From the human T2T-CHM13v2.0 reference genome, Homo sapiens: DNA of 64,000 nucleotides. The DNA lies in the NCBI RefSeq assembly GCF_009914755.1, contig NC_060932.1; one strand, 5' to 3'. Both the position numbers and the translations under genes were made by a program. The notes beneath the pieces were generated by a model, which worked only from the letters and a program-made list of their open reading frames with translations, ran no database searches and was not told the origin of the DNA. Shown piece by piece: positions 49,284 to 59,857 of this stretch. How positions within the stretch are numbered: position 1 is the stretch's first letter; each line of letters begins with the position of its first letter.

Positions 49284-49376
49284 ACTGTCAGATGGTGATT
49301 AATGACTAACAGCCACAGAACAGCCTTGATTGCCAACTGCTGTATTGTTAATCCTGACATTTAATGAGGCCGGACA
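49284..49376 (+). promoter_or_regulatory. Candidate enhancer module, copy A
   Basis: CTGTCA, TGATTAAT, ATTGTT, TGACA and TAATGAGG motifs; homologous to 59765-59857. Function is inferred. Confidence 0.6.
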
Positions 49377-50449
49377 CAACTCCAGCACAATTCCACACCA
49401 TCATCTGCAAATAGCACTCGACGGACTTAATTGGTTAAGTATTTGTGTGTGGGGGGCGGGGGGGTGGGGAGAAAGAGAGAGAGAATAGAGAGATATAAAG
49501 AGCAAAAGAAAGGGGCGAGGTCTCTGTAATTGTGCCCTTTGTGGGCATCTATATTTTAATGCATGTAACTGTGTTATCGCATGAGTCATCTGCGATATAA
49601 CCTTGGTCCCCAACAGAAACATCCCTAATAGGGTGAAACCTCCCACCACCACCCTCCCCACCCCACTCCATCTGACCCCTACGGCGGTGTCCTTCCCACC
49701 ACCATCACTGCTGCTGTCTGAGGGGCAGCTGGAAACTGGCATGTTTGTGAAGTTAAAATACATGAAAGGAAGTTGAAAGAAGAAGTTGTCTCGAAGTGGG
49801 CCAGCATCCAGGGCTCCTGAGAAGCCACTTTTTCACTGGACTCTGATCAATGGGGCCTTGGCCCGCCTGACTGGGTGGTTCCTCCTCTGCCAAGAGAGAA
49901 GTATGTTTCCCCCATTCCGGAACTCAACGCTTTCTTAGGAGATGAACAGAATTCACCTTATTGTTCTAAAAACAGAGTCCCAGGCAACAGGGACAGAGAG
50001 ACTGGCCCAGCAGGGGCTCTCTGGGCCAACTGAGCAAGGTGACAGGGCCCAGGAAAGGAGCTGTTGCCTGCACAAGGGCAGATGGAGTCAAGGAATCAGT
50101 GTTCATGGGATCCTGGCTGTCCCCACAGTGTCGTGGCTGAACCTTACAAGAACAGAAGCAAGTGAAGCACAGGTAGCCAGCCACCTCAAGGGGGAAGTAT
50201 TGATAACGAAGGGACTCAAAGCAGCATAGACATGGGATGCTGAGGGGCCAAGTGAGCAGAGCAGAGAGTGAGTGCTGCAAGTCCTCGGAGGGGTCAACCG
50301 GGACCCAAGCATCCAGAAAAGGCAGGGACCATGCAAAGGGGTCCGAAAAATGGGACCTTCAGTGGAAAGCACTGAGAAGACCATTATTCAGGTGAGGTTT
50401 GGGATAAATTCATTCCCACGAACTCCCCTTTGAAAGGCTCGTTCCTCTA

Positions 50450-51970
50450 AGCATGGATTTCAAACCAGTAGTGTCACCATCACCTGGAAGCCCTTTATTT
50501 TATTTTATTATATGTTTTGAGACAGAGTTTTGCTCTTGTCGCCCAGGCTAGAGTGCAATGGCACAATGTCAGCTCACTGCAACCTCTGCCTGTCGGGTTC
50601 AAGTGATCATCCTGCCTAGCCTCTCGAGTAGCTGGGATTACAGACATGCACCACCACCCCCAGCTAATTTTTTTTGTATTTTAGTAGAGACAGGGTTTCA
50701 CCATGTTGCCCAGGCTAGTCTGGAACTCCTGACCTCAGGTGATCCGCCTGCCTTGGCCTCCCAAAGCGCTGGGATTACAGGCGTGAGCCACTGTGCCCAG
50801 CCTGGAAGCCCTTTAGAAATACAGACTCAGTAGAACTGTGGTCACTAGAGGGGTGGGGAGGGCAGGGGTTGGGGAGGGAGAGGTTGGCTAACAGATACAA
50901 AGTTACAGCTACATAGGAACTAGCAGGAATAAATCCTAGTGTTCTATAGCAGTGTATGGTGATGACCATTAACAAGAATGTATTGTATATTTTCAAATAG
51001 CTACAAGAGAGGATTTGGAATGTTCCCAACACAAAGACATGATAAATGTTTGAGGTGATGGATATGCAGATTACCCTGATTTGATCATGACACATTGTAT
51101 GCAGGTATCAAAATATCACATGGGCCCCATAAACATGTACAATTATTAGGTTGTCAATTTAAAAATACAACTTTTTTTTTTTGAGACAGAGTCTCGCTTT
51201 GTCACCCAGGCTAGAATGCAGTGGCCCAGGCTCATTGCAGCCTCCACTTCCTGGGTTCAAGCAATTCTTGTGCTTCAGCCTCCCAGGTAGCTGGGACTAC
51301 AGGCGTGCACCACCGCACCCAGCTAATTTTTGTATTTCTCATAGAGACAGGGTTTCACCACGTTGGCCAGGTGGTCTCAAACTCCTGGCTTCAAGTGATC
51401 TGCCCACCTCAGCCTCCCAAATTTCTGGGATTACAGGCGTGAGCCACAGCACCCAGCCAAAAAATAAAACTTGTTAAAAGGGAATGTAGACTCACAGGCC
51501 CCATCCCGATCCATGACTCTAAATCTGCATTTTGACAAAATCCCCTGAGTAAAGTTCAAGTATGAGGAGTGCTGCTCTAAATGCCATGGTCAAGAAGCCG
51601 CACACAAAAGCCAGGCCTGACCCAATTACCTAGTGTCTGGTAGTCCCAACATGTGTCCACTTTGCTACTACAAGAAACACAGCCAGGTGTGATGGTTCAC
51701 GCCTGTAATCCCAGTGCTTTGGGAGGCCTGAGGTGGAAGGATTGCTTGAGGCCAGGAGATCAAGGCCAGTGTAGACAACATCCCAAGACCCGATCGCTAT
51801 TAAAAAAAAAAAAATTGCCAGGTGCAGTGACGCATGCCTGAAGTCCCAGCTACTCCAGAGCCTGAGGTGGGTTGATCGCTTGAGCCCAGGAGGTTGAGGC
51901 TGCAGTGAGCTGTGATTGTACCACTGCACTCCAGCCTGGGAGACAGAGTGAGACCCTGTCTCAAAAAAAA
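50450..51970. mobile_element. Nested cluster: MER5A-like relic split by Alu (~50494-50803, -), L1MA 3' end (~50820-51165, +) and Alu (~51172-51458, -); then Alu (~51680-51970, +)
   Basis: TSD cctggaagcccttt; L1MA motif gatggatatgcagattaccctgatttgatcatgacacattg; MER5A-like aaatctgcattttgacaaaatcccc. Confidence 0.78.
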
Positions 51971-58912: not shown

Positions 58913-59764
58913 AAACTTGAGTGACAGAAGTCCTCATCCTAGTCTGGTCTGTAGATGTCCTCTGCTCCATCTCTCTTCTCCTCCCTCCTTTATGAAAAAA
59001 CTTAGAGAGACAGACTAAGAAACTAAGCAGCACTTCCCATTGGTTGATTTCAGAGGCACCTGTGCAGACCAGGCCTCTCCTTGCACCACCCTGACTGCAC
59101 TCTCACACATGAAATATCAATATCACTATTAAAATACAAACATCACTCGTACCCCACTGCCACAGCTAGAGATGGGGCTGAAAAGCCAAGCCCCTCTGAG
59201 AGACGAAACGGGGCTTGAATTCAGAGTGAGATGGAAAAAATTGAGATGAAAACTTTTCCTGCCAGCAGGATCTGCTTATTTGGGAATGGTGGGAAGGGAA
59301 GGGAAGGGAAGGGAGGGTGGGAAGGGCAGGGAAAAGGAACATAAAGGAAAATATGTTGGCACCTAGTAGCTGAAGGAGGGAGAGAAGGGTGTGCCAGGGA
59401 ACGAGGGGGCGGGTGTGGAAAGACGAGGCCTGGGTGCTGATGACAGCCTTCCCTGACTCCACCAGCTTGCCAAGACCCAGCCCTAGATCCCAGAGGGGTC
59501 ACAGCTGAGGTCCCCCCTCCAGAAGCCACTACCTTTCATTTTCTTGCTCCCCAGTCTCTGTGCCCAGAATCACTGTCTGCCAGGCTCTGGCCAACCTGTA
59601 GCCTCTCCGTGCTGAAAACGACCCGCTAAAAAAGCCAAGAGGGAAGGACCCAGCACACAGCCGTGAACCACATATACACGAAGAGGTAACTCTAAACTCC
59701 AGAGCTGGGCCCAGGAGGAGGGGAAGGGTGGAGGGGGGATGAGGTTTTTCCACTTCCATTCGCA

Positions 59765-59857
59765 ACTGTCAGGCGGGTGATTAATGACCAACAGGTTTGG
59801 AATCGCCTCTATTGCCAGATCAGTATTGTTGCCCCTGACAGCTAATGAGGTTGGACA
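59765..59857 (+). promoter_or_regulatory. Candidate enhancer module, copy B
   Basis: Same motif order and near-identical spacing as 49284-49376. Function is inferred. Confidence 0.6.

What the first reader, a model, noticed from the sequence alone, without database searches (positions are those of the whole stretch)
49284..59857. Two dispersed 93-bp paralogous non-coding modules 10.5 kb apart, conserved mainly at transcription-factor-like motifs
Seen: copy A (49284-49376) actgtcag-atggtgattaatgactaacagccacagaacagccttgattgccaactgctgtattgttaatcctgacatttaatgaggccggaca and copy B (59765-59857) actgtcaggcgggtgattaatgaccaacaggtttggaatcgcctctattgccagat-cagtattgttgcccctgacagctaatgaggttggaca align by hand at 70 of 94 columns (~74%) on the same strand. 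The identical blocks (ACTGTCAG, GTGATTAATGAC, AACAG, ATTGCCA, GTATTGTT, CCTGACA, TAATGAGG, GGACA) are separated by diverged spacers of almost fixed length, and I see no extended similarity in the flanks. Known: CTGTCA/TGACAG is the Meis/Prep site, TGATTAAT fits the Pbx-Hox TGATNNAT site, ATTGTT is a Sox site, TGCCA an NFI half-site and TAAT a homeodomain core. Linked Pbx-Hox plus Meis sites are a described grammar of vertebrate hindbrain enhancers. Inference: an ancient in-cis duplicated, rigid-grammar (shadow) enhancer pair for ZNF703, or an unrecognised very old exapted repeat. I do not recognise it as a common repeat.
Basis: partly seen in the sequence, partly recalled or inferred. Interest (0 to 1): 0.85.

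Follow-up and report, generated by a model that had tools for sequence, protein, structure and literature searches.

The report
Duplicated Hox-responsive enhancer modules near ZNF703
Two roughly 100-base stretches downstream of ZNF703 are old copies of one conserved regulatory element carrying Hox, Pbx and Meis binding sites; each was already catalogued as a likely hindbrain enhancer, but I found no report that they are duplicates of each other.

Summary
Copies A (49284-49376) and B (59765-59857) align at 70 of 94 columns on the same strand. The match has E 1.6e-10 in the window and 8.7e-6 in the whole genome. No third full copy exists in the T2T genome, and none was found within 100 kb of ZNF503.

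Both copies are already catalogued. B is CONDOR element CRCNE00010936. The centre of A is CRCNE00010928. Both MEIS + PBX-HOX pairs are listed as conserved predicted hindbrain-enhancer sites in Grice 2015.

A third, partial copy, C (35874-35892), lies in CRCNE00010897. [quoted passage not shown] Its mouse counterpart needs its HOX-PBX site for activation by HOXA2 with PBX and MEIS.

Differences between A and B are clustered (P about 0.002-0.004). The distance from the PBX-HOX site to the 3' MEIS site stays at 58-59 nt in human, dog, mouse, fugu, zebrafish and both copies.

Best reading: an ancient in-cis duplicated Hox/TALE-responsive enhancer. Repeat, RNA and chance readings fail. Reporter activity of A and B, and any redundancy between them, remain untested. 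The new point is the paralogy. Interest is moderate.

The parts
49272..49376 (+).
   Evidence: 70 of 94 columns identical to B. Sequence-only model hit at 49273-49378.
59753..59857 (+). Copy B of the module
   Evidence: Model hit at 59754-59860.
49285..49305 (+). A: MEIS/PREP site CTGTCA (49285-49290), 5-nt gap, PBX-HOX decamer TGATTAATGA (49296-49305)
   Evidence: Listed in Grice 2015 S6 table at hg19 chr8:37574408-37574428, gap 5, in a GERP region 'Y'.
49309..49349 (+). A: central 41 nt, identical to CONDOR element CRCNE00010928 (human-fugu set). Holds the ATTGCCA and GTATTGTT (Sox-like) blocks.
   Evidence: The sequence printed from Parker 2011 Additional file 7 is identical to the window text (compared by eye). 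Block positions.
49355..49368 (+). A: degenerate inverted MEIS-like site TGACAT (49355-49360) followed by TAATGAG (49362-49368)
   Evidence: It is non-canonical, so Grice S6 does not list it as a second pair.
59747..59882 (+). CONDOR element CRCNE00010936 (136 nt), which contains copy B
   Evidence: hg19 chr8:37584870-37585005 in Grice S2. The human sequence in Parker Additional file 7 equals the window text. The offset to T2T is +418,877, derived.
59766..59787 (+). B: MEIS/PREP site CTGTCA (59766-59771), 6-nt gap, PBX-HOX decamer TGATTAATGA (59778-59787)
   Evidence: Grice S6: hg19 37584889-37584910, gap 6, GERP 'Y'. The PBX-HOX site is conserved in human, mouse, dog and fugu, noted 'Aligned 23/23 sp.'.
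59836..59849 (+). B: inverted MEIS site TGACAG (59836-59841) followed by TAATGAG (59843-59849)
   Evidence: The MEIS(-) hit is present in human, mouse, dog and fugu. Grice S6 lists the pair at gap 48, 'Y'.
35874..35892 (+). Element C: partial third copy, CTGTCAG-A-GTGATTAATGA (MEIS site, 3-nt gap, PBX-HOX decamer)
   Evidence: Grice S6: hg19 37561021-37561039, gap 3, 'Y'.
35807..35965 (+). CONDOR element CRCNE00010897, which contains C. Assayed as znf703_10897. The reverse primer of the mouse Zfp703 enhancer matches 35897-35916.

Best explanation
A and B are two surviving copies of one ancestral cis-regulatory module of about 105 bp that was duplicated locally, downstream of ZNF703. Both copies have since been kept by purifying selection.

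Proposed mechanism:
- A MEIS/PREP-PBX-HOX complex assembles on the 5' composite site, CTGTCAG, then 4-5 nt, then GTGATTAATGA.
- A second, inverted MEIS-type site with an adjacent TAATGAG lies 58-59 nt downstream.
- Several fixed-position blocks lie in between (AACAG, ATTGCCA, GTATTGTT). They are likely cofactor sites, and one looks Sox-like.
- Together these read the Hox code and raise ZNF703 transcription in Hox-positive hindbrain and branchial-arch (neural crest) cells.

Element C, 13.4 kb upstream of A, carries the same 5' composite site. It is the experimentally supported member of the trio.

Shown: the paralogy, genome-wide uniqueness, clustered conservation, deep conservation of B and of the centre of A, and Hox/TALE dependence of C's mouse counterpart.

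Inferred: Hox/TALE binding and enhancer activity of A and B, ZNF703 as the target, and the age of the duplication (probably before the teleost-tetrapod split).
For: Paralogy and uniqueness:
- 70 of 94 identical columns, E 8.7e-6 genome-wide.
- The two block patterns (25 and 28 specified bases, up to 3 mismatches) each hit only A and B in 3.1 Gb. Reversed-pattern controls gave 0 hits.
- CTGTCAGN{0,6}GTGATTAATGA occurs 4 times in the genome. Three of these are in this window, all on the + strand. Controls gave 0.

Selection:
- The flanks show no similarity while the core does.
- Mismatches are clustered, P 0.004 and 0.0018.

Cross-species evidence from the literature:
- B is CRCNE00010936. Its PBX-HOX and 3' MEIS sites are present in human, mouse, dog and fugu.
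- The centre of A is CRCNE00010928, in the human-fugu CONDOR set.
- A's MEIS + PBX-HOX pair lies in a GERP-constrained region.
- Spacing from the PBX-HOX start to the 3' MEIS start is 58 nt in human, dog and fugu, and 59 in mouse. It is 59 in A and 58 in B. It is 58 in the zebrafish sequence, counted by hand.
- The zebrafish 10936 sequence keeps CTGTCAG, a TGATNNATKR site, TGCCA, GTATTGTT, CTGACA and TAATGAGG (by eye).

Function by analogy and context:
- In Grice 2015, 67 of 75 CNEs with this syntax were hindbrain enhancers (abstract).
- znf703_10897 (C) gave 10 GFP-positive embryos of 32 injected at 48 h. All 10 showed hindbrain and pharyngeal-arch signal.
- The reverse primer of the mouse Zfp703 enhancer matches the window at 35897-35916 with 0 mismatches. 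Disrupting that enhancer's HOX/PBX site reduced activation.
- Zfp703 is downregulated in the second arch of Hoxa2 mutants.
- Three HOXA2 ChIP peaks (rows 9, 73 and 30 of the table) lie at 0, +14.6 and +23.9 kb in mouse. C, A and B lie at 0, +13.4 and +23.9 kb in human.
Against: - I found no reporter, ChIP or deletion result tied by sequence to A or B. B is a listed candidate in Grice S2, but it is absent from the assay tables I searched; only 10876 and 10897 are listed for znf703.
- Orthology of the two further mouse HOXA2 peaks to A and B rests on spacing only. The A offset differs by 1.2 kb. No mouse genome was available.
- Neither of those two peaks appears in the HOXA3 table at FE>10.
- For A, the human-fugu CONDOR element covers only the central 41 nt, not the MEIS or PBX-HOX sites. 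A is absent from the zebrafish set, and its 3' MEIS site is TGACAT. Deep conservation of A's Hox/TALE sites is therefore not shown.
- C was weak at 72 h, with 3 GFP-positive embryos of 31.
- C shares only about 28 nt with A. Its downstream part scores no better than shuffles (278 and 395 of 500 shuffles score as well). C could be convergent rather than homologous.
- No copy was found near ZNF503, so nothing ties the module to the period before genome duplication.
Confidence: 0.7

Rival explanations
1. Both copies are relics of a very old, low-copy interspersed repeat (the UCON, MER121, LF-SINE or AmnSINE type) that was exapted, rather than a local duplication of an enhancer.
For: - A short, sharply bounded unit without similar flanks is what a transposed fragment would leave.
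- CTGTCAG near the 5' end and CTGACA(G) near the 3' end form a short inverted repeat.
- The genome BLAST here has limited sensitivity. A control old dispersed repeat returned only 12 other copies.
Against: - Only two copies exist in 3.1 Gb by BLAST at E<=10 and by two block patterns with up to 3 mismatches.
- Both copies lie 10.5 kb apart on the same strand in one regulatory domain.
- Repeat controls did return many copies: an L1 fragment gave 3,438 candidates, and an old repeat gave 12 hits on other chromosomes.
- The similarity runs past the inverted repeat on both sides, so these are not clean termini.
Confidence: 0.07
2. A and B arose independently. Their likeness is convergent, because the same set of factors demands the same site order and spacing.
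For: - The identical blocks look like factor sites.
- C shares only the MEIS + PBX-HOX composite, and this composite also occurs once on chromosome 15 without further similarity.
Against: - Eight or more blocks occur in the same order, with spacing equal to within 1 nt, over 94 columns.
- Identity also covers positions next to the core motifs, such as G before TGAT, C after TGATTAATGA, and CC before TGACA.
- No other locus in the genome has reached either half-pattern, although Grice lists 3,122 conserved MEIS + PBX-HOX pairs with a gap of 40 bp or less.
Confidence: 0.05
3. The module is a structured RNA element, for instance a hairpin within or next to lncRNA LOC101929622, and is conserved for its fold.
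For: - An inverted repeat, CTGTCAG ... CTGACAG, brackets about 60 nt.
- On the minus strand of B, an 11-pair stem forms.
- B lies 80 nt past exon 2 of the lncRNA, and A lies about 600 nt upstream of its exon 1 (hub annotation).
Against: - Fold energies are ordinary, with z of -0.54 and -0.92 on the + strand and -1.63 and -0.39 on the - strand.
- Predicted structures differ between the copies.
- The Rfam E-value scan of 35000-61000 gave 80 matches. All were SRP/Alu-type, miRNA-family or weak lncRNA-model hits, and none overlaps A, B or C.
- A lies outside the annotated transcript.
Confidence: 0.03
4. The modules are real Hox/TALE-bound elements, but they act on another gene (ERLIN2 or the lncRNA), or as silencers or tethering elements rather than as ZNF703 enhancers.
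For: - Target assignment is by proximity only.
- In the HOXA2 table, the peak at mm9 summit 28119145 is labelled 'Erlin2 Zfp703'.
- RefSeq annotates silencers in this window (hub annotation).
Against: - Zfp703, a hindbrain and arch patterning gene, is downregulated in the second arch of Hoxa2 mutants.
- C and 67 of 75 elements with the same syntax act as positive enhancers.
- CONDOR clusters these CNEs with ZNF703.
Confidence: 0.1

Closest known systems
PBX-HOX + MEIS/PREP 'hindbrain syntax' CNE enhancers (Parker et al. 2011, PMC3261376; Grice et al. 2015, PMC4489388), including znf703_10897 (element C)
   Same: - Canonical CTGTCA and TGATNNATKR sites 3-6 nt apart, inside conserved sequence next to a developmental transcription-factor gene.
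- A, B and C are themselves rows of Grice's S6 table. B and C are in the S2 candidate list.
   Different: - A and B are additionally alike over about 70 further nucleotides. They share a second inverted MEIS-type site, a TAATGAG and several unassigned blocks at fixed spacing.
- Neither A nor B appears in the assay tables I could read.
Mouse Zfp703 and Meis2 HOXA2/PBX/MEIS-bound branchial-arch enhancers (Amin et al. 2015, PMC4333904; Bridoux et al. 2020, PMC7769617)
   Same: - The same locus.
- The same HOX-PBX site type containing TAAT.
- The reverse primer of the tested Zfp703 enhancer matches the window next to C.
   Different: - That enhancer corresponds to C, not to A or B.
- Whether the two further HOXA2 peaks downstream are A and B is inferred from spacing only.
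Duplicated CNEs (dCNEs) of the CONDOR group (McEwen et al. 2006, not held here; described in PMC2020477, PMC2781166, PMC1896008)
   Same: Fish-mammal conserved non-coding elements that exist as small families with significant sequence similarity within one genome.
   Different: - Described dCNEs lie next to different paralogous genes and date to whole-genome duplication. ZNF503/ZNF703 pairs are reported, for example.
- Here both copies sit beside the same gene, and none is near ZNF503.
Hoxb2 and Hoxb1 rhombomere-4 auto/cross-regulatory elements (recalled from the literature, not read here)
   Same: A Prep/Meis CTGTCA site a few nucleotides 5' of a Pbx-Hox bipartite site, read by a ternary complex.
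   Different: Those use TGATTGAT-type (paralog group 1) sites inside Hox clusters. Here the site is TGATTAAT, in a downstream target gene, and it is duplicated.
Shadow enhancers (concept from Drosophila; recalled)
   Same: Two separate elements near one gene with the same predicted input.
   Different: - Shadow enhancers are defined by overlapping activity, which is untested here.
- They usually lack alignable sequence, whereas A and B are alignable.

Membership tests
hb_40 hindbrain-syntax element (Grice 2015) | Canonical PBX-HOX motif TGATNNATKR | tested here: met
   TGATTAATGA at 49296-49305 (A), 59778-59787 (B) and 35883-35892 (C).
hb_40 hindbrain-syntax element (Grice 2015) | MEIS/PREP motif CTGTCA within 40 bp of the PBX-HOX motif | tested here: met
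   Gaps of 5 (A), 6 (B) and 3 (C) nt.
hb_40 hindbrain-syntax element (Grice 2015) | Lies in a GERP-conserved region | not testable with these tools
   No conservation track is available here. Grice's S6 table marks all three pairs 'Y'.
hb_40 hindbrain-syntax element (Grice 2015) | Drives hindbrain reporter expression | not testable with these tools
   In the literature this is shown only for C: 10 of 32 injected embryos were GFP-positive at 48 h, all with hindbrain and arch signal, and 3 of 31 at 72 h. I found no assay of A or B.
Duplicated CNE (dCNE) family | Element conserved between human and fish | not testable with these tools
   No other vertebrate genome is held. Per the CONDOR lists, B is CRCNE00010936 (human, fugu, zebrafish) and the centre of A is CRCNE00010928 (human-fugu set).
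Duplicated CNE (dCNE) family | More than one significantly similar copy in the human genome | tested here: met
   Exactly two copies, E 8.7e-6 genome-wide.
Duplicated CNE (dCNE) family | Copies lie beside different paralogous developmental genes | tested here: not met
   Both copies are 3' of ZNF703. There is no hit on chromosome 10 genome-wide and none within +-100 kb of ZNF503. The outer part of the ZNF503 CNE domain was covered only by the genome-wide searches.
Interspersed repeat / exapted transposon family | Many dispersed copies in the genome | tested here: not met
   2 candidates for A or B, against 3,438 for an L1 control and 13 for an old-repeat control.
Described RNA family (Rfam 15) | Match to a covariance model, or an unusually stable conserved fold | tested here: not met
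   No Rfam match on A, B or C among 80 matches at E<=1. Fold z-scores range from -0.39 to -1.63.
Shadow enhancer pair | Two enhancers of one gene with overlapping activity and buffering on deletion | not testable with these tools
   This needs reporter assays and single and double deletions.

The most novel reading that the evidence does not exclude
A and B descend from a local duplication that predates the teleost-tetrapod split, more than 400 million years ago. Both have been retained ever since as sequence-homologous twin enhancers of one gene.

The roughly 60 positions identical between the paralogs, most of them also kept in zebrafish, would then define a fixed-spacing, enhanceosome-like grammar. 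It would consist of a MEIS-PBX-HOX site, an inverted MEIS site with TAAT 58-59 nt away, and at least three unassigned cofactor sites. This goes beyond the loose 'two motifs within 40 bp' syntax now in print.

Together with C, the trio would set the dose or robustness of Hox-dependent ZNF703 expression.
Probability: 0.35. Interest if true: 0.6.

Novelty: new member of a known kind. Interest (0 to 1): 0.42.

Why it matters
Hox proteins bind very similar sites, and it is still unclear how real target enhancers encode their specificity. A pair of paralogous enhancers kept apart for a very long time is a natural mutagenesis experiment. Positions identical in both copies and across species mark what the complex needs, and the diverged spacers mark what it does not.

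Here that comparison points to a fixed 58-59-nt separation of two MEIS-type sites. It also points to several unassigned blocks, which can be tested directly.

It also gives ZNF703, a hindbrain and branchial-arch patterning gene and a breast-cancer oncogene (the latter recalled, not checked here), a defined trio of candidate Hox-response elements. These can be used for deletion studies of enhancer redundancy.

Tried and rejected
- **Wider duplication block.** I compared +-4 kb around A, B and C and ran a whole-window self-comparison. Only the module itself is a low-copy non-repeat pair. The other pairs were an L1 fragment (14480-14561 / 19370-19451), an old dispersed repeat (23675-23735 / 42045-42105) and an internal repeat at 19784-20193.
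- **Extension of C.** The sequence downstream of C's composite site scores no better against A or B than shuffles do (278 and 395 of 500 shuffles score as well). An upstream island, AAG(C)ACTGATTA(T)CCAA, shared by A and C scored 7 of 500, but it is in a different order relative to other islands. I treat it as unproven.
- **Chromosome 15 site (L008).** The similarity stops after about 27 nt.
- **ZNF503 locus.** Over 200 kb, the best BLAST E-values were 2.9 for A and B and 0.043 for C, on 12-22 nt. There was no CTGTCA within 12 nt of TGATNNAT on either strand, and no model hit.
- **Profile search of the whole genome.** I used the model on held sequence and fixed-length block patterns instead.
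- **More flanking DNA.** Sensitive local searches of those regions were therefore not done.
- **RNA reading.** Rejected.
- **Coding reading.** Rejected. There are stops in 6 of 6 frames of A and 5 of 6 frames of B.
- **McEwen 2006 (dCNE paper).** Not held. I could not check whether CONDOR flagged 10928 and 10936 as duplicates.
- **Literature searches for the paralogy.** These were 'ZNF703' + 'shadow enhancer' (0 papers), the three CRCNE identifiers (0 papers), duplicated-enhancer terms (nothing relevant) and dCNE terms. Supplements in PPTX or PDF form could not be read. These include Grice S1 and S2 Files with the multi-species alignments, and Bridoux S3 Fig with the enhancer sequence.

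
Full report
**Observation.** The two stretches read exactly as quoted. 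A global alignment gives 70 identical columns of 94, with two single-base gaps, an offset of 10,481 bp and the same strand. blastn scores the pair at E 1.6e-10 within the window and 8.7e-6 against the whole 3.1-Gb assembly. A local alignment with 600-nt flanks extends only about 12 nt further 5'. Within +-4 kb, nothing else lies on the same diagonal, and all other hits are multi-copy 250-350-bp repeats. A whole-window self-comparison finds four low-copy pairs. Only A-B is not explained as a repeat or by an overlapping repeat-masked stretch.

**Clustering of differences.** The differences between the copies are clustered. There are 13 runs of identity, and 0.4% of 100,000 column shuffles give as few. 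Sixty of the 70 identical columns sit in runs of 5 or more, and 0.18% of shuffles reach that. An island of similarity with fully diverged flanks and blocky internal conservation is what selection on both copies leaves.

**Not a repeat.** The genome search returned 2 candidates for A and 2 for B, each being itself plus the other copy, even at E<=10. Two controls show the search does see repeats. An L1 fragment from the window gave 3,438 candidates. An old dispersed repeat gave 12 hits on other chromosomes at 73-90% identity. That is a small share of such a family, so sensitivity is limited. I therefore added two fixed-length block patterns taken from the positions identical in A and B, with 25 and 28 specified bases and up to 3 mismatches. 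Each hits only A and B, and the reversed-pattern controls gave 0. The 3' half with flexible spacers is likewise unique to A and B. Dfam is not available here, so a vanishingly low-copy ancient family cannot be formally excluded.

**A third, partial member.** blastn and a sequence-only model built from A and B both pick up 35867-35908 (E 1.5e-4 and 0.038 in the window). This element, C, reads AGGACTGTCAGAGTGATTAATGA and matches A at 25 of 28 columns (89%) with a 2-nt gap. The pattern CTGTCAGN{0,6}GTGATTAATGA occurs only four times in the genome. Three occurrences are C, A and B, all on the + strand within 24 kb. The fourth is on contig 15 and shows no further similarity. Beyond this composite site, C is no more similar to A or B than shuffles are. 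C is therefore either a truncated relative or a convergent site.

**The elements are already catalogued.**
- Grice et al. 2015 (PMC4489388) defines a hindbrain-enhancer syntax as TGATNNATKR plus CTGTCA within 40 bp in GERP-conserved sequence. I read the abstract, sections 10 and 30, text passages, part 10 of S2 and passages of S3, S4 and S6. There are 3,122 such sites genome-wide, and 67 of 75 tested CNEs were hindbrain enhancers.
- Its S6 table lists hg19 chr8:37561021 (gap 3), 37574408 (gap 5) and 37584889 (gap 6), all marked as lying in GERP regions. It also lists a second pair in B at gap 48. With the offset derived, these are exactly C, A and B.
- In the part of the table shown, no other conserved pair lies between hg19 37.45 and 40.35 Mb.
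- S2 lists CRCNE00010897 (C) and CRCNE00010936 (B) as candidates.
- Parker et al. 2011 (PMC3261376; passages of text and supplements) prints the human CONDOR sequences. CRCNE00010936 equals window 59747-59882. CRCNE00010928, 41 nt, equals window 49309-49349, the centre of copy A. CRCNE00010897 equals 35807-35965 (compared by eye).
- That file is described as human CNEs shared with fugu. Both A (its centre) and B therefore have fugu counterparts according to CONDOR, which suggests the duplication predates the teleost-tetrapod split.
- The zebrafish file holds 10936 and 10897 but not 10928. The lamprey file holds none of them.

**Fixed spacing.** The distance from the start of the PBX-HOX decamer to the start of the 3' MEIS-type site is 58 nt in human, dog and fugu B and 59 in mouse B. 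It is 58 in B and 59 in A in the window. It is 58 in the zebrafish 10936 sequence (my hand count).

**Zebrafish comparison, by eye.** The zebrafish sequence keeps CTGTCAG, a TGATNNATKR site (TGATTTATGG), TGCCA, GTATTGTT, CTGACA and TAATGAGG. It loses the AACAG block. It shares some characters with human A only (GA after CTGTCAG; CACAG..CAG.CCTTG in the centre; TGACAT; GAGGCC). It shares others with human B only (the 6-nt gap; the 43-nt centre length; CCAG.TCAG before TATTGTT). It therefore looks close to the common ancestor. I did not type this sequence into any tool, so these are hand counts and need a proper alignment.

**Function.**
- Direct evidence exists only for C. As znf703_10897, it gave 10 GFP-positive embryos of 32 injected at 48 h, all 10 with hindbrain and pharyngeal-arch signal. 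It gave 3 of 31 at 72 h.
- Bridoux et al. 2020 (PMC7769617; passages and supplement passages) tested a mouse 'Zfp703 enhancer'. It is activated by HOXA2 and HOXA3, with or without PBX and MEIS. It has a TAAT inside its HOX/PBX motif, and activation drops when that motif is disrupted.
- Their reverse primer matches the human window at 35897-35916 with no mismatch, 5 nt past C's composite site. The forward primer has no match within 3 mismatches. That enhancer is thus the counterpart of C.
- Their HOXA2 second-arch peak table lists three strong peaks. The summits are at mm9 chr8:28095251 (row 9), 28109864 (row 73) and 28119145 (row 30), at offsets 0, +14.6 and +23.9 kb. C, A and B lie at 0, +13.4 and +23.9 kb.
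- This fits A and B being HOXA2-bound, but it is inference from number, order and spacing only. In the HOXA3 table I found neither of the two further peaks.
- Amin et al. 2015 (PMC4333904, passages) reports dense Hoxa2 and Meis binding at Zfp703 and loss of Zfp703 expression in the second arch of Hoxa2 mutants.
- De Kumar et al. 2017 (PMC5580710, passages) shows the locus as an example of HOXA1 plus TALE occupancy.
- Parker 2011 notes that ZNF503/703 are needed for rhombomere 4.

**Mechanism proposed.** A MEIS/PREP-PBX-HOX ternary complex forms on the 5' composite site. A second MEIS-type site, with an adjacent homeodomain core, lies at a fixed distance of five to six helical turns. Cofactor sites lie in between. 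The Sox-like reading of GTATTGTT and the NFI-like reading of TGCCA are recalled, not tested. The idea that TGATTAAT favours central Hox paralog groups is also recalled. Bridoux states only that no HOX-PBX variant exclusive to HOXA2 was found.

**Rivals.**
- RNA: fold energies are ordinary (z -0.39 to -1.63) and the predicted folds differ between copies. None of 80 Rfam matches at E<=1 in 35000-61000 touches A, B or C.
- Coding: there are stops in 6 of 6 frames of A and 5 of 6 frames of B.
- Convergence: this is unlikely, because no other locus among thousands with the two-motif syntax reaches either half-pattern.

**ZNF503.** The paralogous gene lies at C10:76272802-76274424. In the 200 kb around it there is no significant BLAST hit and no model hit. 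There is also no CTGTCA within 12 nt of TGATNNAT on either strand. Its CNE domain is wider than 200 kb, and I could not fetch the rest. The genome-wide searches also found nothing on chromosome 10. Published ZNF503-ZNF703 paralogous CNE pairs exist, but this module is not detectably among them.

**Points against my reading.**
- I found no assay of A or B.
- For A, the fugu-conserved CONDOR element excludes the MEIS and PBX-HOX sites. Its 3' MEIS site is degenerate (TGACAT), and it is missing from the zebrafish set.
- Orthology of the mouse peaks to A and B is not shown.
- C's reporter activity was modest.
- The target gene is inferred.

**Novelty.** The elements and their Hox/TALE sites are in print. 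The A-B paralogy, the shared extra blocks and the trio arrangement were not found in the papers and supplements I could search. McEwen 2006 and the CONDOR database, which flagged duplicated CNEs, could not be consulted. I file it as a new member of a known kind: a duplicated CNE family of the Hox/TALE enhancer type, unusual in having both copies beside the same gene.

Noticed in passing
G000 contig 15, 69678098-69678118 (L008:1501-1521): This is the only other place in the genome with CTGTCAG, a spacer of up to 6 nt, then GTGATTAATGA. The similarity to A, B and C ends after about 27 nt. I did not identify the neighbouring gene or check conservation.
   Followed up: partly
window 49226-49240 and 59680-59691: A short shared island, AAGAGG(G)TAACT, lies 44 nt upstream of A and 74 nt upstream of B. 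19 of 500 shuffles score as well. In B it is the splice donor of exon 2 of lncRNA LOC101929622 (the exon ends at 59685). A G-rich run of about 30 nt separates it from B and is absent in A. This may be a remnant of a longer duplicated unit, or chance.
   Followed up: partly
window 49974-50391 and 59555-59685: The lncRNA LOC101929622 starts about 600 nt downstream of A, and its exon 2 ends 80 nt upstream of B. It could be an enhancer-associated transcript. Not tested.
   Followed up: no
window 35945-35954: Element C's CNE holds a second PBX-HOX-type site, TGATTTATTG. It is listed in Parker 2011's motif table at positions 147-156 of CRCNE00010897.
   Followed up: no
window 14480-14561 and 19370-19451: A 76%-identical pair that looks like a dispersed low-copy duplicate within the window is an L1-type repeat fragment. 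It gave 3,438 candidates genome-wide.
   Followed up: yes
window 23675-23735 and 42045-42105 (opposite strands): A weak pair (74% identity, E 0.007 in the window) belongs to an old dispersed repeat. It has 12 hits on other chromosomes at 73-90% identity. The family was not named.
   Followed up: partly
window 19784-19863 and 20122-20193: An 86%-identical direct repeat 338 bp apart, inside a stretch masked as repeat (19717-20243).
   Followed up: no
window 49309 to 59747 (between A and B): Parker 2011's human CONDOR file lists further CNEs with identifiers between those of A and B (CRCNE00010929, 10932, 10933). None has a detectable duplicate in the window self-comparison. Only this one module of the interval seems to have been kept in two copies. 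I did not map these CNEs onto the window.
   Followed up: no
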